From: Oligoflexales bacterium
GTDB lineage: Bacteria > Bdellovibrionota_B > Oligoflexia > Oligoflexales > RGVZ01
NCBI GenBank assembly: GCA_044236265.1
Contig: JBIIGV010000037.1
Span: 1-24,019, forward strand
Direction: 5' to 3'
Length of the DNA stretch: 24,019 nt
Positions 7,431 through 16,841 of this stretch are shown here, piece by piece. Position 1 is the first letter of the stretch. Each line of letters begins with the position of its first letter. The position numbers were made by a program, and so were the translations under genes. The notes below the pieces were generated by a model. The model made no database searches, was not told the origin of the DNA, and saw nothing but the letters and a program-made list of their open reading frames with translations.

Positions 7431-7826
7431 ATGTCAAAAACCACTGATGTCGATATGGATAAGATTGTCGAAAGACTGAAAATAGACCGCATAAAGCGGC
7501 ATATTTTTTTGTGTACTGGAGACAAATGTTGTTCGGCAGAGACTGGCATGAAAGCCTGGGAGTTCCTCAAAGAACGAACCAAGGATACTGATGCTGTTGA
7601 CGCGGGAGTTTACCGAACCAAAGTTGGTTGTCTTCGCATTTGCCGCGAAGGTCCTATAGCTCTCGTTTACCCCGAAGGTGTTTGGTACAAAAATGTCACG
7701 GTTGAAGCCTGCAAGAAAATCGTCGATCAGCATTTGATCGGTGGAAAAATTGTGGAGGAACTTAAAGTCGCGGAGCATTCATTGCATCCGGCCTTATCTT
7801 CAGCTGACCAATGGGACACTCCCTAG
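7431..7826 (+). CDS. Thioredoxin-like [2Fe-2S] ferredoxin
   Basis: HIFLC....CC, GCLRIC.EGP..LVYPEGVWY and IV..HL..G.IV motifs. Confidence 0.92.
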   Translation: MSKTTDVDMDKIVERLKIDRIKRHIFLCTGDKCCSAETGMKAWEFLKERTKDTDAVDAGVYRTKVGCLRICREGPIALVYPEGVWYKNVTVEACKKIVDQHLIGGKIVEELKVAEHSLHPALSSADQWDTP

Positions 7827-7966: not shown

Positions 7967-8033
7967 CTTGTTAGTTATTCACATTAATGTTCAGTGTCTA
8001 GGTTGCTAATTTAAATTGGAGTGGAGTCAAAGT

Positions 8034-8795
8034 ATGACGGAACTAACAGCAGCGCAGTTTTCGCTCGTTTACAACATGTTTTCGTTAACCATTGCTAGTA
8101 TGGGAGCAGCTTTTATCTTCTTCCTAGCATCTAGATCGCAAGTGGCGCCAAAATACCGCGGCGCGCTTACTGTGTCATCTTTAGTGGTGGCTATCGCTTG
8201 CTATCACTACTTCCGCATCTTTAATAGCTGGAACGAAGCGTTCACCCTGAGCGGCGCCGTATATACGCCGTCTGGCAAGCCATTCAACGATGCCTACCGC
8301 TATGTCGATTGGCTTTTGACAGTTCCACTTCTTCTTGTTGAACTTGTCGCAGTCTTGGCATTGCCGAAAAATCAGCGTGAAGGCCTCTTTGGTAAGCTAG
8401 CTATCGCGGCTTTCCTAATGATTGCACTTGGCTATCCTGGTGAAGTCGCCACAGACAATACAACTCGGGCTATCTGGGGCACTCTGTCCTCGATCCCATT
8501 CGCTTACATCCTAATGATCCTCTGGGGCAAATTGGGTGCAGCAATCGAAAGCCAGCCAGGCGAGGCAAAAGTCTACTTGACCAACATCCGCCTACTGCTT
8601 CTTTTGACCTGGGGCTTCTACCCAATCACTTACATGCTTCCAATGTTCGGCATTGACCCACAATCCTCGGTTGTTGGTATTCAGGTTGGATACGCTGTCG
8701 CTGACGTGCTTGCAAAAGCCTTCTACGGCGTGATGATCTACTGGATCGCAAGAGCTAAGTCAGAAAACGAAGGTTTTGCTGACGCCGCTCACTAA
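8034..8795 (+). CDS. Xanthorhodopsin/Gloeobacter-rhodopsin-type light-driven proton pump (DTE motif)
   Basis: Seven hydrophobic segments. Helix B has YHYFRI; helix C has FNDAYRYVDWLLTVPLLLVE (D-T-E, Leu at the tuning site). Also GYPGE, TWGFYP and helix G ADVLAK (Schiff-base Lys at 8715-8717). GGAG SD at 8023-8026 supports ATG 8034 over TTG 8016. Confidence 0.96.
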   Translation: MTELTAAQFSLVYNMFSLTIASMGAAFIFFLASRSQVAPKYRGALTVSSLVVAIACYHYFRIFNSWNEAFTLSGAVYTPSGKPFNDAYRYVDWLLTVPLLLVELVAVLALPKNQREGLFGKLAIAAFLMIALGYPGEVATDNTTRAIWGTLSSIPFAYILMILWGKLGAAIESQPGEAKVYLTNIRLLLLLTWGFYPITYMLPMFGIDPQSSVVGIQVGYAVADVLAKAFYGVMIYWIARAKSENEGFADAAH

Positions 8796-8835: not shown

Positions 8836-10884
8836 TTAAACCGCCTTCGCTGAAAAGCAAGGCGGTTTTTTTTTCAGAAATCTCTTCATGACTGGCGCAT
8901 GAGACGCAGTTAAAGCTCCGATCCCCAAGAAAACGATCTTCCAAATTTGTTGACTACCGCCTGAGTGCGCATAAAGCCAGGCTAGCAGCGTAATCCCCAC
9001 AAGGCTCAAGGTTGTGTAGGGGAGGCTTTTTATCAGGTATTGCTTGGATGACCAGCCCTTGACAGCTCGTTGGACCGCAATCGAATCCCACCCGTGCCAG
9101 AATGCGAAGAAACAAAAAAATCCGGGCAGCAGGGGAAGTGCCAAAGTTGAAGCGGCGAGAACGACGGTGGCGGGCATACCGATCACAGACCTGCCAAGAG
9201 TCTTGCGCTCATATCGATCAAAAATCGCGGACGCAAATAGTGCGGCAAAGAATACAATTACCCCGCAACCGCGCGCAGCTTCCAAGGTCATTCCTTTGAT
9301 TGAGAGAGAGTCTCCGAGAATTAACTGGATAATCGGGCTTGCCTCCTGCCAATGGACTAGAACGCCAAATGTTGCAGCGAATAAACCCCATATCCATGCT
9401 GCTACGCGGCTCCAAGTGGCATATCTAGAACTTTTTATGGCACGAATCCAGTATGCTTCACCGAAATGATCCGCTGACTGGAACAGAAAAAATACCAACG
9501 CCAGTGGCGGAAACACAAACCAGGTGAGAATAAATAAAGCTATGGAGCCTAGATAAACGCTATAAAACTGGTAGGGCTTTTGAGATGTGGGATCAAGGAG
9601 ATGATCCAAGCTGCCGTGTCCAATCCCAGTCGTCAATAGACCGATAAAGGGAATCACCCATCCTGCCAAACCGCCAATCGTCCAATGAAGAACGACACTG
9701 GCCAACGCCGCAAAGATAAACGGATATAAAACAAAAAGACTACGTAAAAATGGAGCCCACGGCAGACCTAAAAATATTCTAATTTCTTGGGAAAATTTCG
9801 ACTTTTCATCGAGGAATAATAGGATTTTTGAGGCACTATTCGCTGAGAAAAGAATGTAAAAGATTTTCGAGATCATCTCTCCATTTGTTCTGATAATTCG
9901 CAGTAGAAGTGCGTCATAAACCTGAAAACGAAAATGTCCGTAGGACGTGGTCGCTAAACCACTCAAGTGCCGAAGGTTTCTCTGAAATGAGTAGCCTGTG
10001 CTTGCTTTCACCATACCAGCAGCACCACCAATGACCTGGATAACTGAACTAGAGTCAGACGCTGGGAATTTCGGTTCTGCATTGAGTGTCATCGGGATAG
10101 CACCTGATTCTACCTTCAGAACGCGAAAATTCGGTAAGCAAAGCTTGTGAGCAATATACTCTCGAAGTATCGACTCGCACGCTTCCGGTGGAATTTTTTG
10201 GGCTGCAAATACCGTAAACTCGACCAAAGCGCGACGTCGATCAAACGGTAAAACATAGACAAAGCGAACTTCGCCTTGTTGTTCAAGTCTAAAATCCATC
10301 AAGTCGACCAGGTGCGGATCAAAGTGATCCTCCTCTGTTTCAAGTTCAAAACCGAGGAAATATTGCAACAGCTCTGGCTTCTGGACCGTCACAGAATTAA
10401 AGACGCGCCCTGCTGAAAACGTCTGACCGGATGCGGTCGTGACCAAGGCTGTCCTTTTTGCGTTTAACTCCTCGGTTCTCTCGAGAATGCCCGTGACCGA
10501 ATCTTTGAATTTTTGAAATCTCTTATCATTTTCAAGTCTGTGCTTGATTTTAATGAGTAGACGTTCGCCGGGAATCCTCTCGTAGTAATAATCACCAAAG
10601 TTACAGATAACTGGCTGACGCTCTGTCGATGTTATCCGAAATTTATCCCAGCGGTTCTCGATACAATCTGAATAACGATGGGGAGTGGCCGTTTTGAGCC
10701 GCCAGGAGGCAAATGTCTTGGATGAAAGCGACTCAGGGTCTGGATCGATGATCGCCACTCGGAGATCTTGTGACGTATCGTCTGCAAGAATATCGGCTTG
10801 CATGAGGCCGGCCAAACCGCCACCAACTATTATGACGTCGAAATCCGTCAAGTGGGCGACCATTTTACCACCCGTCCTTTCCAT
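8836..10884 (-). CDS. crtY-blh: Fusion protein: lycopene beta-cyclase (CrtY-type, N-terminal) + beta-carotene 15,15'-dioxygenase (Blh/Brp, C-terminal)
   Basis: N-terminal ~380 aa: DVIIVGGGLAG FAD motif, LMDFR, FVYVLPF, ALVEFT, ESGAIPM, GGAAGMVKASTGYSF, FLDE...LP..PF. C-terminal ~290 aa is multi-TM with GIGHGSLDH, SADHFGE, FFAFWH and LTASH. One uninterrupted frame; the start may be ATG 10863. Confidence 0.9.
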   Translation of the reverse strand: MERTGGKMVAHLTDFDVIIVGGGLAGLMQADILADDTSQDLRVAIIDPDPESLSSKTFASWRLKTATPHRYSDCIENRWDKFRITSTERQPVICNFGDYYYERIPGERLLIKIKHRLENDKRFQKFKDSVTGILERTEELNAKRTALVTTASGQTFSAGRVFNSVTVQKPELLQYFLGFELETEEDHFDPHLVDLMDFRLEQQGEVRFVYVLPFDRRRALVEFTVFAAQKIPPEACESILREYIAHKLCLPNFRVLKVESGAIPMTLNAEPKFPASDSSSVIQVIGGAAGMVKASTGYSFQRNLRHLSGLATTSYGHFRFQVYDALLLRIIRTNGEMISKIFYILFSANSASKILLFLDEKSKFSQEIRIFLGLPWAPFLRSLFVLYPFIFAALASVVLHWTIGGLAGWVIPFIGLLTTGIGHGSLDHLLDPTSQKPYQFYSVYLGSIALFILTWFVFPPLALVFFLFQSADHFGEAYWIRAIKSSRYATWSRVAAWIWGLFAATFGVLVHWQEASPIIQLILGDSLSIKGMTLEAARGCGVIVFFAALFASAIFDRYERKTLGRSVIGMPATVVLAASTLALPLLPGFFCFFAFWHGWDSIAVQRAVKGWSSKQYLIKSLPYTTLSLVGITLLAWLYAHSGGSQQIWKIVFLGIGALTASHAPVMKRFLKKKPPCFSAKAV
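8838..8874 (+). terminator. Rho-independent terminator for the rhodopsin gene, overlapping the last codons of the convergent gene
   Basis: AAACCGCCTT (8838-8847) / AAGGCGGTTT (8859-8868) form a stem that runs into a T9 tract (8866-8874). Confidence 0.8.
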
Positions 10885-12008
10885 TCATAGCGTCCTCGCA
10901 GGCTGGAACTAATGGCTTTATAAGCAGCTATGTTCAGAAGTAGTAAACTTAGAGGGTGCAGAAGTAGATCTCGAAGCGGCATCTTAAAAGATCTTGCTGT
11001 CAAAATTCGACTTAAAGCCAATAAACAAAGCGAAATAACTGCCAAGTCAGGGCGATAAAAATAGCCCCAAAATGGAAATAGAAAAACAAAATTGACGGAA
11101 GCAATAATGCATCCAAAAATTAATGGTGTGCCGCCACCGATCGCGACCAGATTTTTTGAAAATCCAGCCAAGGTGGCCCGCCAATTAGGATACATGGATA
11201 CGCGAATGTGATTGGCTGCCAAGACTGGCTGAACACCGCGACCTGTAATTCCGTGAATCTGGCGCGCCAGTGCGACGTCCTCTAATGGCGTCAGGCCAAG
11301 TTTTCGGTGACCTCCGCTTTTAAAATAATCACTCTTGAATAGTGCGACCCATTGCCCGTTGGCCATTTGCATGGACTTTGTTGGCAAGCGCCAGCAGCAA
11401 AACAACGGTAGCGATATCATCAATGGAAGATTCATGATCCATGGTATCAGTAAACGCTCAAGCAAGCCTTGACACGACTGTGCAGGTAAAGCCGATAGCC
11501 CCGACATTAGCTTGCGCGCCTGTGGCTGCATCAAGAGATCTACCGTGCAACGAACAGCACTCGTCGAGGGTCGCACATCGGCGTCGCAGAAAATTAAAAT
11601 ATCTCCATTCGCTAGGTCAGCAAGTTGCGCGCAAGCATGAGCTTTCCCAGAGATTTTTTTGCTCTCGTTCCATGGAGCTCCCCGCACGATCTTTAACGGT
11701 ATGGTAGCATTTGATATGAACGAGTTTACAATGGCTGAGGAGTCATCGTCAGACTCGTCATCAAGAATGATCACCTCCATTGGTCTGTAAGTTGATGACA
11801 GCAGAGCCGTAAGGAGGTGGGGGATATTTTCGGCCTCATTTCGAACAGGTATAAGTAAACTGACCAGGGGTTTTTCACCGGTATATTCAACTGTGCTTCC
11901 CAGTTTAGTTGCAAAAATCGCATTAAGGATGACCATTACGGTCGAAATTACGATTGCTGAGAATGATAACAAACTTAGGGAGTCACCGAGGAGGGTTAGA
12001 TCCATCAA
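10848..12008 (-). CDS. GT2 glycosyltransferase, carotenoid glycosyltransferase (CruC/CrtQ-like)
   Basis: VSLLIPVRNE, LDDESDD, GK..AC.QL, FCDADV, ANGQ, EDVALA, MY......GFSKN and WKGR motifs; carotenoid cluster context. AGGAGGT SD precedes TTG 12008 / ATG 12005. Confidence 0.85.
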   Translation of the reverse strand: MMDLTLLGDSLSLLSFSAIVISTVMVILNAIFATKLGSTVEYTGEKPLVSLLIPVRNEAENIPHLLTALLSSTYRPMEVIILDDESDDDSSAIVNSFISNATIPLKIVRGAPWNESKKISGKAHACAQLADLANGDILIFCDADVRPSTSAVRCTVDLLMQPQARKLMSGLSALPAQSCQGLLERLLIPWIMNLPLMISLPLFCCWRLPTKSMQMANGQWVALFKSDYFKSGGHRKLGLTPLEDVALARQIHGITGRGVQPVLAANHIRVSMYPNWRATLAGFSKNLVAIGGGTPLIFGCIIASVNFVFLFPFWGYFYRPDLAVISLCLLALSRILTARSFKMPLRDLLLHPLSLLLLNIAAYKAISSSLRGRYEWKGRVVKWSPT

Positions 12009-12664: not shown

Positions 12665-13529
12665 GGGTCAATAATCCGAGATGCAACGTGCCTCGCGTGG
12701 AACTAAAAAGACAGAGTAAGAGCAGTGTGACCGTCGTAAGAATAACAGGTGACCAGGCTGATCCAGCAATTGACAGGCCGACCGGAAGGGACAGGCTTAA
12801 CAAGTAAAATTTAGCAGGCCATGAACGCTCGAAGCGATTTCCATAATTTGAAAGACCCAAAATTTCAAAACTGAGGAATATTAAAAAGCCAGTGAGCAAC
12901 CATCCGAAAAGATTTCTGACGGCGACCCCGAAGAAAAAGACCCCTGACTCTTCCCAAATCCAGTAAGGAGTTAACTGACTCATGGCAGGCTCCAGGGTGA
13001 AATCCCAGGCGACTAGGAGCAATGATGCTATGATGATTCGTCCAAGGCGATGCCACAAATGACCTTTCGCGCCTCCAAAAGCCCTCAGAGGTTTAGGTCC
13101 GAGAATCTGATTTGCTAGCAGATAACAACACAGAGACATGCAAAACCAACTGACAGGAATCAACACAGGAACTTTATCGCCAAGCTTCCAGCCAAGCAGG
13201 CTAGTATAAGAATATTTGCCAAACGGGATCCCGTAACTAGTGCCGCCAAATTCCATGAAAAAACTGATCAAAAAGGCGGGTAGAAAGTACAGCAGCCAAC
13301 GCCAACTCAAAACTTTGTGGGCGGCCCTTATGCACAACCAAAAGCAAAGAAGAATCTGCAATCTCGCAAAAAGCGGGTATGATATGGCGTAAATTGGCGG
13401 CGACCATGGATAGCGCGCAAAAAGTTCTGGATGTAGCGTAAAAGTTGCGTATCCAAAAATTGATATAGCATTGATGAAAAGCAAGGCCCACATTGGAGAA
13501 AAGAATAGCACATGAGTCACTCGGGGCAA
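12648..13529 (-). CDS. cruF: Carotenoid 1,2-hydratase, CruF family
   Basis: E..GTSYGIPFGKYSYT..LG.K....VP.LIP.SWF, AWD..LEPAM, YWIW and RNLFGW motifs; multi-TM. The start is uncertain (TTG 13529 or ATG 13493). Confidence 0.85.
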   Translation of the reverse strand: MPRVTHVLFFSPMWALLFINAISIFGYATFTLHPELFARYPWSPPIYAISYPLFARLQILLCFWLCIRAAHKVLSWRWLLYFLPAFLISFFMEFGGTSYGIPFGKYSYTSLLGWKLGDKVPVLIPVSWFCMSLCCYLLANQILGPKPLRAFGGAKGHLWHRLGRIIIASLLLVAWDFTLEPAMSQLTPYWIWEESGVFFFGVAVRNLFGWLLTGFLIFLSFEILGLSNYGNRFERSWPAKFYLLSLSLPVGLSIAGSAWSPVILTTVTLLLLCLFSSTRGTLHLGLLTRGTST

Positions 13530-14273
13530 GGATATTTAGGACGTACCACAGTCACAAACAGTGACGGCGCAGCCCCTGCCCTAGGAGTTTTAGTCGTTAC
13601 CACGTGGCTTGTTAGTGTTTGGTTTGCTTTTACACGCGTTCGTACAGGTGTTTTCCCTGACTCTTTAGCCAGTATTGCCATGATGCTGTGGATACAGTTT
13701 CTTTACTGTGGTCTTTTCATCGTGACCCACGATGCCTGTCATGGCACCGCGTGGCCGGGAAAACCAAGGCTGAATCGATGGCTGGGAAAGACCACAGCGA
13801 TGCTCTATGCGGCCTTTGATTTCGATCATCTGGTACCAAAGCACCTTGCTCATCACAATCATGTTGCCACCCTCCAAGATCCGGATTTTCACGATAATAC
13901 CTCTAAGGGAAGCTCTTTTTGGGCCTGGGGTTGGCGATTTTTTAAGCATTATCTGAGCCTGAGGCAAATTCTTATCATGATGGGTGTGGCTCAGATTTTT
14001 TTTCATGTGCTCAAGATACCAGAGAGAAACGTCATCCAGTTCTGGGTCGTTCCAGCTATCTTGAGTGGCATCCAGCTCTTTCTATTTGGCACTTGGCTAC
14101 CACACAGAGCAAAAGCTGGCGAAGAGTTTCCCGATCGGCATCATGCCAGAGACTCTGGACTACCGTGGTTATTATCTCTCGTTTCCTGCTGGCATTTCGG
14201 CTACCATCATATTCATCATCTGAAACCCGGCGTGCCGTGGTTCAGGCTACCGTCCTACAGGAGGCCATCATGA
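13512..14273 (+). CDS. crtW: Beta-carotene ketolase, CrtW type
   Basis: GLFIVTHDACHG, KHLAHH, DPDFH, QLFLFGTWLPHR and CWHFGYHHIHHLKPGVPW: three His boxes with CrtW-specific flanks. Confidence 0.92.
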   Translation: MSHSGQGYLGRTTVTNSDGAAPALGVLVVTTWLVSVWFAFTRVRTGVFPDSLASIAMMLWIQFLYCGLFIVTHDACHGTAWPGKPRLNRWLGKTTAMLYAAFDFDHLVPKHLAHHNHVATLQDPDFHDNTSKGSSFWAWGWRFFKHYLSLRQILIMMGVAQIFFHVLKIPERNVIQFWVVPAILSGIQLFLFGTWLPHRAKAGEEFPDRHHARDSGLPWLLSLVSCWHFGYHHIHHLKPGVPWFRLPSYRRPS

Positions 14274-14476
14274 AATTGCGATCGATCTTAATGTGGACCT
14301 TGGGTGGAGCGTTGTTTGGAGTCGCCTTCGGAGCGATAGCCTCTATCTTTCAAGGAGGCCCAGACGCTATGCGAGGTATCCAGGAATCATGGTGGTGGTT
14401 TGGCGTCGCTGGATTTTTGATGTCAACGATCGGAAATGGTAGCGACCGCGCGAGAGGCTCCAGCCAATCTCATTGA
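14270..14476 (+). CDS. Small (68 aa) Gly-rich membrane protein translationally coupled to crtW
   Basis: AGGAGG SD at 14259-14264 and an ATGA overlap with the crtW stop. Sequence MKLRSILMWTLGGALFGVAFGAIASIFQGGPDAMRGIQESWWWFGVAGFLMSTIG... has two hydrophobic segments. Confidence 0.6.
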   Translation: MKLRSILMWTLGGALFGVAFGAIASIFQGGPDAMRGIQESWWWFGVAGFLMSTIGNGSDRARGSSQSH

Positions 14477-15307
14477 TCCCAGTCCCTTGATCTTGAATAC
14501 AAGTAATAGACCCTGAGCGACCGCGACTAACTTGCCAGGCTTCGAAACCACGGTTCGCCTGCGGAACGCAGTTTCTGTATTTTCTCTCGCAGACCGCAAA
14601 AGTTTATGTCCGATTCGTTGGTAAACCTTGCCTGCGATTGCAATGGCAAAAGAGACTCTCCACGGCAGCCAGTAGATGCCTTGAAATCCATGTTCATATA
14701 ACTCATCGGCTCTACGAAGGAGTTTAATAACCGCATCGTGTGCGAGCTCAGGATTAGTCGACAAAACCTTCGCATCGACGTTTTCCAAAAGATCTTTTGA
14801 AATATAAATACGACCAATACTTGCATCTGCTTGGACATCACGGGCGATGTTCGTCAGCTGCATTGCAGACCCCAGAGAAATCGCGTGAGCACTTGCCTGG
14901 TCTGGATCAGCGCCGAGAAGTGGACACATCATAAGTCCCACGACGCCTGCGACACGAAAGCAATACTGTTCGAGTTCTTGGAGATTCGCGTAGCAACGGC
15001 CTTCCACATCCATACGCATACCGGCGATGAATTCTGATCGCTGCCAGTCGTCCAACCAGCGAGGTCCAGAAAGAGCTGCATTCAGTGACCCACGATCCTC
15101 CATCAGTGAAAGTTGTGCCTTTGCCGATAGCAAGTCGGGTGCATCATCGATGGCATCATCACAGCGTCTACACCACTGATAAAGCAATAAGACTTGTTCC
15201 CGGCAGCTTTTAGGCAGGAAAAGTGAGGCTAAGGAAAAACTTTTTGATCCTTGCTTGATGGCTTCAGCGGGAGACGAATTAAAGTCAAGCGTTTGTGAGT
15301 AAGTCAT
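14423..15307 (-). CDS. crtB: Phytoene synthase
   Basis: GSKSFSLAS, LYQWCRRCDDAIDD, GMRMD, YCFRVAGVVGLMM and AMQLTNIARDV..DA..GRIY motifs. GGGAG SD supports ATG 15307 (ORF track starts at 15334). Confidence 0.95.
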   Translation of the reverse strand: MTYSQTLDFNSSPAEAIKQGSKSFSLASLFLPKSCREQVLLLYQWCRRCDDAIDDAPDLLSAKAQLSLMEDRGSLNAALSGPRWLDDWQRSEFIAGMRMDVEGRCYANLQELEQYCFRVAGVVGLMMCPLLGADPDQASAHAISLGSAMQLTNIARDVQADASIGRIYISKDLLENVDAKVLSTNPELAHDAVIKLLRRADELYEHGFQGIYWLPWRVSFAIAIAGKVYQRIGHKLLRSARENTETAFRRRTVVSKPGKLVAVAQGLLLVFKIKGLGSMRLAGASRAVATISDR

Positions 15308-16841
15308 TTGTCGCTCCCGGCTCGCGGCTTCCAATTGGGAGACCTGCTCTCAAGTCTTCAAGCACCAATGTGGCAGTGGCCTTAGCCGAGTTGACAACTC
15401 CGGGTACGCCTGCGCCTGGATGAGTCCCAGCTCCCGTAAAGTACATTCCAGAAACCCGGCCATCGCGGTTATGAGTGCGAAAGAATGCGCTCTGCCAGAG
15501 AACGGGTTCACTGGAAAATGCTGAGCCAAGATGCGAGTTTAATTCAGTCTTGAAATCCATCGGAGTGAAAATCTTCTGAGTCACGATGTGCTTACGTAGA
15601 CCGGGTGCGTAATGTTGTTCGATATAATTTAAGATCCGGTCAGCATATTCTGGGCCTTCCTTTTGCCAGTCCACTTGAAGATTCCCGAGGTGTGGTACTG
15701 GAGAAAGTACGTAAAAAGCCTCGCAGCCTTCCGGCGCCATCCCTGGATCGGTCCGAGTCGGTGCATGCAAATAGAGAGAAAAATCATCGGGGATTTTGCT
15801 GGCCTTGGAAAAGATCTGACTTAAAAGTCCGCGGTACGACTTGCCGAAAAGAATATTATGGTGCGCAAGTTCTGGGTACTGCTTATCGGTACCAAAATAA
15901 ACTAAGAATAATGACATGCTCTGCGAATGACCGAGAACTTTCTTTCGTCCGGCCTCTGCCTCGGGGGTGTTTCGCAGTAGATGACTATAGCTGTGCACCA
16001 CATCCGCGTTGGAAACAACAACATCACAAGGCCATACGCCACTTGCGGTCCTAACGGCGCTAACGTGACCCTCAGTTGTGATAATTTCCTCTACTGGAGA
16101 TGATAATCGCACCTCTCCACCAAGCTCCTCAAAGACTTTGACTAAAGCGCGAACCAAAGCACCTGTGCCACCGCGCGGGAAGAAGACACCCCACTTGCGT
16201 TCAAGATAGTGGATCAAAGTATAAATAGAGGACGTTTTAAAAGGATTGCCGCCAACCAATAGAGTATGAAAACTGAAAGCTTGACGCAGCTGTGGGTCCT
16301 TGATGAAACGTGCGACCGTCTTGAAAACGGAGCGATGAGCGCTCAGTTTGGTCAGTTGCGGAGCGACACGGATCATGCTCCACCAGTTTAGAAACGGCAC
16401 GTGGGCTAATTTCGTGTAGCCCTCATCAAAAACCTCTTTTGAATATTTCAAAAATCTGGAGTACCCATCCACATCTTTTGGGGATTTTTTTTGAATCTGT
16501 TCAGACGTACTAGCGGGGTCATTGGAGTAATCAAATGAAAACCCGTTCTCCCAGAACAAACGATAGAAGGGCGTCACTGGCATCATCTCGACGTAGTCTT
16601 CCATCCTTTTGCCGGAAAGGTCGAAAAGTTCCCGCAAACAATCTGGAGCAGTGATAACGGTCGGTCCAGCATCAAACGTAAAGCCTTTATCCCGGTAGAC
16701 GTATGCTCGGCCTCCAGGCTGATCGCGTTTTTCAAACACAACAACCTTATTTCCTGCCGCTTGCAATCGGATGGCGGCAGCAAGACCTCCAAACCCACTT
16801 CCGATCACAGCAACACGAGCAGAGTTCTTATTTTTATGCAT
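15285..16841 (-). CDS. crtI: Phytoene desaturase (CrtI, lycopene-forming type)
   Basis: VIGSGFGGLAAAIRLQAAG, FDAGPTVIT, FSFHTLLVGGNPF, DDFSLYLHAP and GAGTHPGAGVPGV motifs. Confidence 0.97.
   Translation of the reverse strand: MHKNKNSARVAVIGSGFGGLAAAIRLQAAGNKVVVFEKRDQPGGRAYVYRDKGFTFDAGPTVITAPDCLRELFDLSGKRMEDYVEMMPVTPFYRLFWENGFSFDYSNDPASTSEQIQKKSPKDVDGYSRFLKYSKEVFDEGYTKLAHVPFLNWWSMIRVAPQLTKLSAHRSVFKTVARFIKDPQLRQAFSFHTLLVGGNPFKTSSIYTLIHYLERKWGVFFPRGGTGALVRALVKVFEELGGEVRLSSPVEEIITTEGHVSAVRTASGVWPCDVVVSNADVVHSYSHLLRNTPEAEAGRKKVLGHSQSMSLFLVYFGTDKQYPELAHHNILFGKSYRGLLSQIFSKASKIPDDFSLYLHAPTRTDPGMAPEGCEAFYVLSPVPHLGNLQVDWQKEGPEYADRILNYIEQHYAPGLRKHIVTQKIFTPMDFKTELNSHLGSAFSSEPVLWQSAFFRTHNRDGRVSGMYFTGAGTHPGAGVPGVVNSAKATATLVLEDLRAGLPIGSREPGATNDLLTNA

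What the first reader, a model, noticed from the sequence alone, without database searches (positions are those of the whole stretch)
8836..10884. Lycopene cyclase-Blh fusion: a candidate one-polypeptide lycopene-to-retinal enzyme
Seen: one 682-aa frame in which the cyclase C-terminal motif (FLDE...LPWAPFLRSL, ending ~9735) runs straight into a TM segment and the Blh motif GIGHGSLDH (9601-9627), with no stop, no Met and no clear internal SD at the junction. Established: CrtY makes beta-carotene and Blh/Brp cleaves it to two retinals; they are normally separate genes. Inference: the fusion anchors the cyclase to the membrane and may channel bicyclic product to retinal while monocyclic gamma-carotene escapes to CruF/CrtW for the antenna. 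That would set the retinal:antenna ratio and protect beta-carotene from the ketolase. It is also of potential use for retinoid bioproduction.
Basis: partly seen in the sequence, partly recalled or inferred. Interest (0 to 1): 0.82.

Follow-up and report, generated by a model that had tools for sequence, protein, structure and literature searches.

The report
Natural lycopene cyclase–Blh retinal fusion
One gene beside a light-driven proton pump gene joins the last two enzymes of retinal synthesis into a single membrane protein; the fusion is real and common in uncultured lake bacteria, and it likely secures a supply of retinal, but its activity is untested.

Summary
A minus-strand frame (8836-10884; likely start 10863, 675 aa) joins a Bacteroidota-type FAD lycopene cyclase to a complete Blh with no linker. 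Contigs from 3 of 4 independent lake runs bridge the junction intact. Both halves are under purifying selection, and 97 of the top 150 clusters at 50% identity are full-length fusions.

The ketolase-protection idea is not supported as a general reason. 28 of 34 fused genomes show no crtW, and crtW-bearing relatives have dropped the cyclase half once a canonical crtY was present.

A better reading is a retinal-supply module. In Bacteroidota, 22 of 25 genomes with a Blh-linked cyclase, fused or adjacent, carry a second cyclase, mostly beside cruF. CruF, the likely real competitor, is known to divert flux to monocyclic pigments. In this genome the fused cyclase is the only one found, so it likely feeds both retinal and a keto antenna. 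Channeling is not shown.

Ten literature searches found no description; a four-domain protist CrtI-CrtB-CrtYc/d-Blh is precedent. This scan noted the same fusion twice before on other DNA. Verdict: new variant of a known kind, moderate interest.

The parts
8836..10884 (-). Lycopene cyclase-Blh fusion gene (682 aa from Met1; likely true start Met8 at 10863, 675 aa, overlapping the end of the glycosyltransferase gene)
9736..10845 (-). FAD-dependent lycopene cyclase domain, Bacteroidota type (residues 14-383; GGGLAG 21-26; E222 at 10219-10221; KASTGYSF 293-300)
   Evidence: PF05834 7e-51; geranylgeranyl-reductase-like fold; E222 in 98 of 98 full-length fusions
8869..9735 (-). Blh/Brp beta-carotene 15,15'-dioxygenase domain (residues 384-672), all helical; H423, H473, H597, H662 at 9616-18, 9466-68, 9094-96, 8899-8901
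   Evidence: TIGR03753 113.7 bits, cut-off 95.25; PF15461; His conservation
9601..9765 (-). Seamless junction: last cyclase helix runs into Blh's first helices, no stop, no Met
   Evidence: dN/dS 0-0.14 in 6 of 7 pairs, one not computable
8838..8874 (+). Terminator-like hairpin plus U-run behind the rhodopsin gene; its reverse strand encodes the fusion's last 13 residues
   Evidence: -20 kcal/mol, z -4.05; similar hairpin inside the gene end in 6 of 9 relatives checked
8016..8795 (+). Xanthorhodopsin-like proton pump (likely start ATG 8034); DTE motif, Gly at XR position 156, hydrophobic PMF at the TM6 end like S. ruber XR
10848..12008 (-). Family 2 glycosyltransferase (CruC-like; label recalled)
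   Evidence: PF00535
12005..12664 (-). Acyltransferase (CruD-like; label recalled)
   Evidence: PF01553
12648..13529 (-). CruF-like carotenoid 1',2'-hydratase
   Evidence: PF04240 1.5e-43; NF045693 139.7 bits, under its cut-off of 400
13512..14273 (+). CrtW-like beta-ring ketolase, divergent from cruF
   Evidence: NF045690 3.8e-65, 219.7 bits, under its cut-off of 350
14423..15334 (-). Phytoene synthase CrtB
15285..16841 (-). Phytoene desaturase CrtI
   Evidence: TIGR02734 667.9 bits
16834..17892 (-). Polyprenyl (GGPP) synthase CrtE

Best explanation
The gene encodes one protein with a lycopene cyclase half and a Blh half, which likely cyclises lycopene to beta-carotene and likely cleaves it to retinal for the neighbouring xanthorhodopsin, the fusion likely serving to keep a retinal-supplying cyclase at the membrane, one-to-one with Blh. 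SHOWN: one frame, two complete domains, key residues kept, purifying selection on both halves, wide spread. INFERRED origin: stop-loss in a rhodopsin-crtY-blh operon whose cyclase belongs to a Blh-linked lineage, separate from the pigment-cluster cyclases that sit beside cruF. INFERRED working in this organism: it is the only cyclase found, so it must make both products. Lycopene or gamma-carotene caught by CruF can no longer be cyclised twice and would go on (glycosyltransferase, acyltransferase, CrtW) to a 4-keto monocyclic glycosyl ester, a likely antenna. Molecules cyclised twice are cleaved by the attached Blh. Sorting would come from proximity in the bilayer plus Blh's preference for beta-carotene, not from a sealed tunnel, and the fusion is dispensable when another bicyclase is present.
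For: Fusion real and conserved: 54 other full-length 90%-clusters; 8 of 39 related genomes; 52 of 80 loci (query biased to fusions); 97 of the best 150 clusters at 50% identity. dN/dS 0.05-0.16 (cyclase) and 0.07-0.15 (Blh) in 7 of 7 pairs. H423/H473/H597/H662 and E222 in 98 of 98; by motif and spacing they match the His-21/78/188/256 plane of bioRxiv 10.64898/2026.08.06.743266 (passages). Precursor state exists: 9 of 80 loci have rhodopsin-crtY-blh as abutting or overlapping separate genes, and a cyclase adjoins blh in 7 of 30 Bacteroidota blh loci fetched independently of the fusion. Division of labour: 17 of 20 fused Bacteroidota genomes have a CrtYcd, 16 of the 17 within about 1 kb of cruF; 5 of 5 split genomes have a second CrtY-family gene, 33-37% identical, in a separate 99-supported clade. 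Nonlabens CrtY alone gives beta-carotene, but with CruF mainly 1'-hydroxy-gamma-carotene (PMC11855829). Blh kcat/Km is 97 for beta- and 0.55 for gamma-carotene (PMC9227343). In L030 the cyclase half is eroded by in-frame deletions that remove E222 and TGYS while Blh is intact, in a genome with a canonical crtY; this suggests the half is kept only while it is needed. No other cyclase or RPE65-type oxygenase in G000.
Against: No activity data for any member. The His192-equivalent is S601, and H192A cut 66A03 Blh activity below 5% (PMC9227343); His is absent there in 111 of 111 fused and 9 of 9 adjacent domains but present in 22 of 29 other Bacteroidota Blh. The segment after TGYSF is about 10 residues shorter in this clade (median 18 against 27-28), effect unknown. 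The dedicated-cyclase pattern does not hold in the window's own clade: 13 of 14 fused genomes have no second cyclase and 6 of 14 have no cruF, so there the fusion persists without a competitor. Grouping the window's clade with pigment-cluster cyclases is not firmly rejected (p-AU 0.053). Blh did cleave gamma-carotene in E. coli. G000 is 88.7% complete, most genomes compared are incomplete MAGs, and kin are not independent.
Confidence: 0.6

Rival explanations
1. Near-neutral operon compaction: two overlapping, co-translated genes lost their stop, the product works as well as the two separate enzymes, and it spread in small-genome lake bacteria with no kinetic benefit.
For: Split versions overlap or abut. 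Fused genomes are mostly 2-3 Mb, while the 5 split Bacteroidota are 2.8-5.0 Mb. The fusion has been undone in 4 relatives and is kept in 6 of 14 genomes with no cruF or crtW. Only 2 of 50 sampled Blh-bearing Bacteroidota genomes are fused.
Against: The junction is itself conserved (dN/dS 0-0.14), and the model fixes the two domains confidently (pTM 0.88). About 100 clusters at 50% identity have kept the fusion. The cyclase tree suggests more than one origin (p-AU 0.026), though not consistently.
Confidence: 0.2
2. True channeling: the substrate is cyclised twice and handed to Blh through a shielded path, so the fusion sets the retinal:antenna ratio and avoids 4-oxo-retinal.
For: Linker-less junction and confident two-domain model. 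Blh cleaves canthaxanthin to 4-oxo-retinal and competes with CrtW for beta-carotene depending on expression level, so a reason to shield exists. cruF is present in 28 of 34 fused genomes.
Against: crtW found in only 6 of 34 fused genomes. Clusters with crtW and cruF run without the fusion (L029, L030, L033). Blh kinetics and CruF capture explain the sorting without a channel. No tunnel could be inspected.
Confidence: 0.12
3. The cyclase half is a monocyclase: Blh cleaves gamma-carotene to one retinal plus an acyclic retinal, and the rest goes to the antenna, so beta-carotene hardly forms.
For: Bacteroidota CrtY family members include a monocyclase (CrtYm, cited in PMC11855829). Blh cleaves gamma-carotene in vivo. 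The segment after TGYSF is shortened in this clade.
Against: Gamma-carotene is an about 175-fold poorer Blh substrate. In Bacteroidota the fused cyclase coexists with a CrtYcd, a type described as a monocyclase in PMC2889829, so a second monocyclase would be redundant. A CrtYm-like enzyme from Nonlabens is a bicyclase.
Confidence: 0.06
4. One half is inactive (for example Blh is only a membrane anchor because it lacks the His192 equivalent), or the fusion is an assembly artefact.
For: S601 in place of His192; sub-threshold scores against CrtY models.
Against: Four His invariant in 98 of 98. It is the only retinal-forming enzyme found in a rhodopsin-bearing genome. Stand-alone Blh of the same clade also have Ser there. 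Junction intact in 3 independent runs.
Confidence: 0.02

Closest known systems
Separate crtY and blh genes of rhodopsin gene clusters, closest the rhodopsin-crtY-blh operons of Chitinophagaceae, Spirosomataceae and Cytophagaceae (e.g. Parasediminibacterium paludis CECT 8010, locus L089)
   Same: Same two enzyme families, same order, next to a rhodopsin; their cyclases group with the window's clade (support 96, not)
   Different: Here one polypeptide with no stop; it is the genome's only cyclase found, whereas 5 of 5 split genomes have a second, pigment-cluster cyclase
Thecamonas trahens CrtI-CrtB-CrtYc/d-Blh protein (PMC10016063, passages)
   Same: A lycopene cyclase domain directly followed by a C-terminal Blh in one natural polypeptide
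   Different: Eukaryotic, four domains, and an unrelated membrane-type CrtYc/d cyclase; this one is bacterial, two domains, FAD-type cyclase
Blh of uncultured marine bacterium 66A03 (PMC9227343; bioRxiv 10.64898/2026.08.06.743266)
   Same: Family profile met; four His matching the proposed His-21/78/188/256 iron plane
   Different: His-192 position is Ser601; carries an N-terminal cyclase
Flavobacterial CrtY/CrtYm (Nonlabens spongiae, Flavobacterium P99-3; PMC11855829)
   Same: Bacteroidota-type FAD cyclase coexisting with CruF
   Different: A different clade from pigment-cluster cyclases, about 10 residues shorter after TGYSF, membrane-anchored through Blh
Salinibacter ruber xanthorhodopsin with salinixanthin
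   Same: Fenestrated XR (G155 = G156), hydrophobic TM6 end, genes for a 4-keto monocyclic glycosyl ester
   Different: No crtD found, CrtW-type ketolase, freshwater Oligoflexales-like host; antenna structure is inferred

Membership tests
CrtY/CrtL-type FAD lycopene cyclase (PF05834) | Pfam profile above gathering cut-off | tested here: met
   173.9 bits against 23.4
CrtY/CrtL-type FAD lycopene cyclase (PF05834) | N-terminal GxGxxG dinucleotide fold and geranylgeranyl-reductase-like structure | tested here: met
   GGGLAG 21-26; best Foldseek hits are GGRs, E 5.7e-12
CrtY/CrtL-type FAD lycopene cyclase (PF05834) | Conserved Glu of the LP..(L/V).E.T motif (catalytic role recalled, not read) | tested here: met
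   E222 matches the IEDT Glu of canonical-type CrtY in L106 and L108; invariant in 98 of 98
Canonical Erwinia-type CrtY (TIGR01789) | Equivalog cut-off 215.2 bits | tested here: not met
   60.4 bits; canonical-type CrtYs form a separate branch
CrtY/CrtL-type FAD lycopene cyclase (PF05834) | Forms beta rings; bicyclase versus monocyclase | not testable with these tools
   needs expression
Brp/Blh beta-carotene 15,15'-dioxygenase | TIGR03753 / PF15461 above cut-off | tested here: met
   113.7 against 95.25; 102.9 against 28
Brp/Blh beta-carotene 15,15'-dioxygenase | Four coplanar His (66A03 H21/78/188/256) | tested here: met
   H423, H473, H597 in 160 of 160 domains, H662 in 158 of 160; matched by motif and spacing, geometry not inspected
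Brp/Blh beta-carotene 15,15'-dioxygenase | His192 of the original four-His proposal | tested here: not met
   S601; His also absent in 9 of 9 adjacent stand-alone Blh. The 2026 preprint places His192 outside the iron plane, so I do not treat it as defining
Brp/Blh beta-carotene 15,15'-dioxygenase | Cleaves beta-carotene to two retinals | not testable with these tools
   needs assay
Substrate-channeling bifunctional enzyme | Intermediate shielded from the bulk pool or competing enzymes | not testable with these tools
   model coordinates not available; comparative data show the fusion is dispensable
Antenna-binding xanthorhodopsin (neighbour gene) | DTE motif and Gly at XR156 | tested here: met

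The most novel reading that the evidence does not exclude
Rhodopsin-bearing lake bacteria evolved a retinal-dedicated lycopene bicyclase lineage. Its fusion to Blh, likely more than once, makes a processive lycopene-to-retinal enzyme that holds gamma-carotene through the second cyclisation and passes beta-carotene to Blh within the membrane, out of reach of CruF. This would be a natural channel for a membrane-embedded intermediate and a single-gene retinal cassette.
Probability: 0.15. Interest if true: 0.68.

Novelty: new variant of a known kind. Interest (0 to 1): 0.42.

Why it matters
It answers a small but real question: how rhodopsin bacteria that make mostly monocyclic carotenoids still get beta-carotene for retinal. 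The comparative data point to a separate Blh-linked cyclase, often fused. The protein is mis-annotated as one enzyme or the other in databases, so surveys that count crtY or blh can miss a step. About 100 diverse natural versions with the cyclase N-terminal to a membrane enzyme give retinoid engineers ready-made fusions in an orientation that failed for engineered CrtY-CrtZ (PMC10165439). Natural fused, split and eroded versions make channeling directly testable. Fusion of consecutive carotenoid enzymes is itself common, so the surprise is modest.

Tried and rejected
Complex prediction of the naturally split cyclase and Blh of L089: no answer, score 0.00, no evidence either way. No RNA holder listed, so expression is unexamined. 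No solved structure related by sequence to the fusion profile; Foldseek hits shown were FAD-enzyme folds only. The promoter/terminator scan missed the hairpin at 8838-8874; it was found by folding. Number of origins is unresolved: all fused cyclases as one clade gave p-AU 0.139 on 44 rows and 0.026 on 45 rows with more unfused neighbours; Blh domains gave 0.54. Rows were hand-picked subsets of 194 cyclase and 160 Blh domains, LG+G4, quick search, and fission from a fused ancestor would give the same pattern. The 'stops inside' three relatives lie upstream of the true start and are not breaks. The weak 'crtW' hit in L020 was not confirmed by NF045690. The primary CrtY mechanism paper could not be retrieved, and a flavoenzyme review had nothing on it. 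Literature searches without a description of this fusion; most subscription papers and all supplements were unseen. No earlier scan notes near this place.

Full report
OBSERVATION. The frame 8836-10884 is on the minus strand, 682 aa, no internal stop. Pfam finds a lycopene cyclase (16-308) and a BCD/Blh domain (415-667). NCBIfam passes Blh (113.7 against 95.25) but not canonical CrtY (60.4 against 215.2). Relatives point to Met8 (10863) as the start. The window is the whole contig C179 of a 3.25 Mb, 88.7% complete genome. Its nearest named relatives are Oligoflexales MAGs, and the runs that hold the DNA are mostly lake metagenomes.

NOT AN ARTEFACT. Contigs of 3 of 4 independent runs span the junction with no indel; the fourth has a gap. 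In one run 11 of 14 variant positions are third codon positions. 54 other full-length fused 90%-clusters at 26-89% identity were found among the 130 proteins stored. 8 of 39 related genomes carry the intact fusion. A profile search over 50% clusters gave 112 of the best 150 with both domains, 97 full length. dN/dS was 0.05-0.16 for the cyclase, 0.07-0.15 for Blh and 0-0.14 for the junction over 7 pairs; the two pairs with the window are near saturation.

ANATOMY. The AlphaFold model (pLDDT 90.5, pTM 0.88) shows an alpha/beta FAD domain resembling geranylgeranyl reductases, running without a linker into an all-helical domain. Stand-alone Blh of this clade start at the junction. H423, H473, H597, H662 and E222 are invariant in 98 of 98. 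A 2026 preprint (10.64898/2026.08.06.743266; abstract, introduction, sections 7 and 10, passages) puts the iron plane at His-21/78/188/256, matching these four by motif and spacing. Against: the His192 position is Ser601, and H192A lowered activity below 5% (PMC9227343, passages and Table 2). His is absent there in all 111 fused and 9 adjacent domains but present in 22 of 29 other Bacteroidota Blh. The stretch after TGYSF is about 10 residues shorter in this clade.

CONTEXT. The cluster is crtE-crtI-crtB, divergent crtW, cruF-acyltransferase-glycosyltransferase-fusion, facing a xanthorhodopsin; CrtW and CruF score below their equivalog cut-offs. The rhodopsin has DTE, Gly at XR156 and a hydrophobic TM6 end like S. 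ruber XR, unlike Kin4B8. bioRxiv 2022.08.24.505090 (passages) suggests this site may select keto over hydroxy antennas. No second cyclase, CrtYcd, RPE65 oxygenase or crtD was found in the genome.

DISTRIBUTION. Of 80 loci kept from 207 matches: 52 fused, 9 adjacent but separate, 5 Blh only, 14 cyclase only (some are cut at contig ends, and the query favours fusions). In the window's phylum 14 of 130 genomes have Blh and 11 are fused (one of the other three is cut at a contig end). In a Bacteroidota sample 51 of 401 have Blh, and 2 of 50 apart from the centre genome have a frame over 600 aa. A cyclase adjoins blh in 7 of the 30 loci fetched there. Fusions form a Bdellovibrionota clade and a large Bacteroidota clade. 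One origin was rejected in one cyclase test (p 0.026) and not in another (0.139) or for Blh (0.54), so the number of origins is open.

I screened 43 hand-picked genomes: 34 fused, 5 split, 4 with the cyclase half lost. CrtW was found in 6 of 34 fused and CruF in 28 of 34. Six of 14 fused Bdellovibrionota-side genomes had neither. The four relatives that lost the cyclase half keep cruF (4 of 4) and crtW (3 of 4) and have a canonical-type crtY elsewhere. In L030 the half survives as an in-frame remnant lacking E222 and TGYS. So the fusion is neither tied to CrtW nor required with it. These are incomplete MAGs and kin, so absence means not found.

A BETTER READING. 17 of 20 fused Bacteroidota have a CrtYcd, 16 of them beside cruF. 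5 of 5 split genomes have a second CrtY-family gene, 3 of them beside cruF, 33-37% identical and in a separate clade. Single-peptide CrtYcd includes a described monocyclase (PMC2889829, passages). A flavobacterial CrtY makes beta-carotene alone but mainly 1'-hydroxy-gamma-carotene with CruF (PMC11855829, passages). The Blh-linked cyclase therefore looks like a retinal-supply enzyme, and CruF the likely competitor. In the window's clade 13 of 14 fused genomes have no second cyclase, so here it likely serves both branches. Blh prefers beta- over gamma-carotene 97 to 0.55 and outcompetes CrtW when abundant, so products can be sorted without a tunnel. Membrane tethering sped engineered CrtY (PMC10165439, passages). 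All of this mechanism is inference; no member has been assayed.

KNOWN VERSUS NEW. It works like separate CrtY plus Blh. It is a member of the PF05834 and Brp/Blh families by profile and residues, but not of canonical CrtY. Precedent for a cyclase-Blh join is the Thecamonas CrtI-CrtB-CrtYc/d-Blh protein (PMC10016063, passages), with an unrelated cyclase. PMC5877348 (passages) treats crtY and blh as separate genes. Ten full-text searches found no description of this fusion; subscription papers and supplements were not seen. Databases name it as one enzyme or the other. This scan reported the same fusion on two other genomes.

VERDICT. Real, widespread, apparently undescribed; a new variant of a known kind. 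Interest 0.42. The added value is the dedicated-cyclase pattern and the natural fused, split and eroded series. Strict channeling has about 0.15 probability.

Noticed in passing
window 8838-8874: The fusion's last residues (KKKPPCFSAKAV) are encoded by the reverse strand of the rhodopsin gene's terminator-like hairpin (z -4.05). 6 of 9 relatives checked keep a similar hairpin with paired changes, so the conserved tail likely reflects an RNA constraint, not a protein one.
   Followed up: yes
L030:5482-6759 (G131): A 426-aa fusion caught decaying: three in-frame deletions remove most of the cyclase while Blh is intact; the genome has a canonical-type crtY elsewhere. A MAG, so misassembly is not excluded.
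   Followed up: partly
L011-L033, L044 (rhodopsin genes): Rhodopsin type tracks the antenna genes: 14 of 15 loci with the XR-like PM(F/M) TM6 end have cruF in the locus, against 0 of 7 with a different DTE rhodopsin; 4 of those 7 have Pro at the XR156 position by alignment.
   Followed up: partly
L089 and L153 (G570, Parasediminibacterium paludis CECT 8010): A cultured strain with two cyclases: one in a crtI-crtB-idi-crtD-cruF pigment cluster, one in a rhodopsin-crtY-blh operon; a ready test system.
   Followed up: partly
P0062, P0063 (703 aa): Divergent fusions on long branches, outside the Bacteroidota clade and only weakly tied to the window's clade; possibly a third origin, host unknown.
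   Followed up: no
L091 (G005, same genus): A same-genus genome has a stand-alone, unrelated Blh next to a rhodopsin, so this genus gained retinal modules more than once; the fusion is patchy (2 of 12 same-genus genomes).
   Followed up: no
window 14093-14476 (+): A small ORF after crtW, probably starting at ATG 14270 (overlapping the crtW stop, strong GGAGG upstream), hydrophobic, no Pfam match.
   Followed up: no
window 7431-7826 (+): Thioredoxin-like [2Fe-2S] ferredoxin (weak PF01257, below cut-off) just upstream of the rhodopsin; link to the cluster untested.
   Followed up: no
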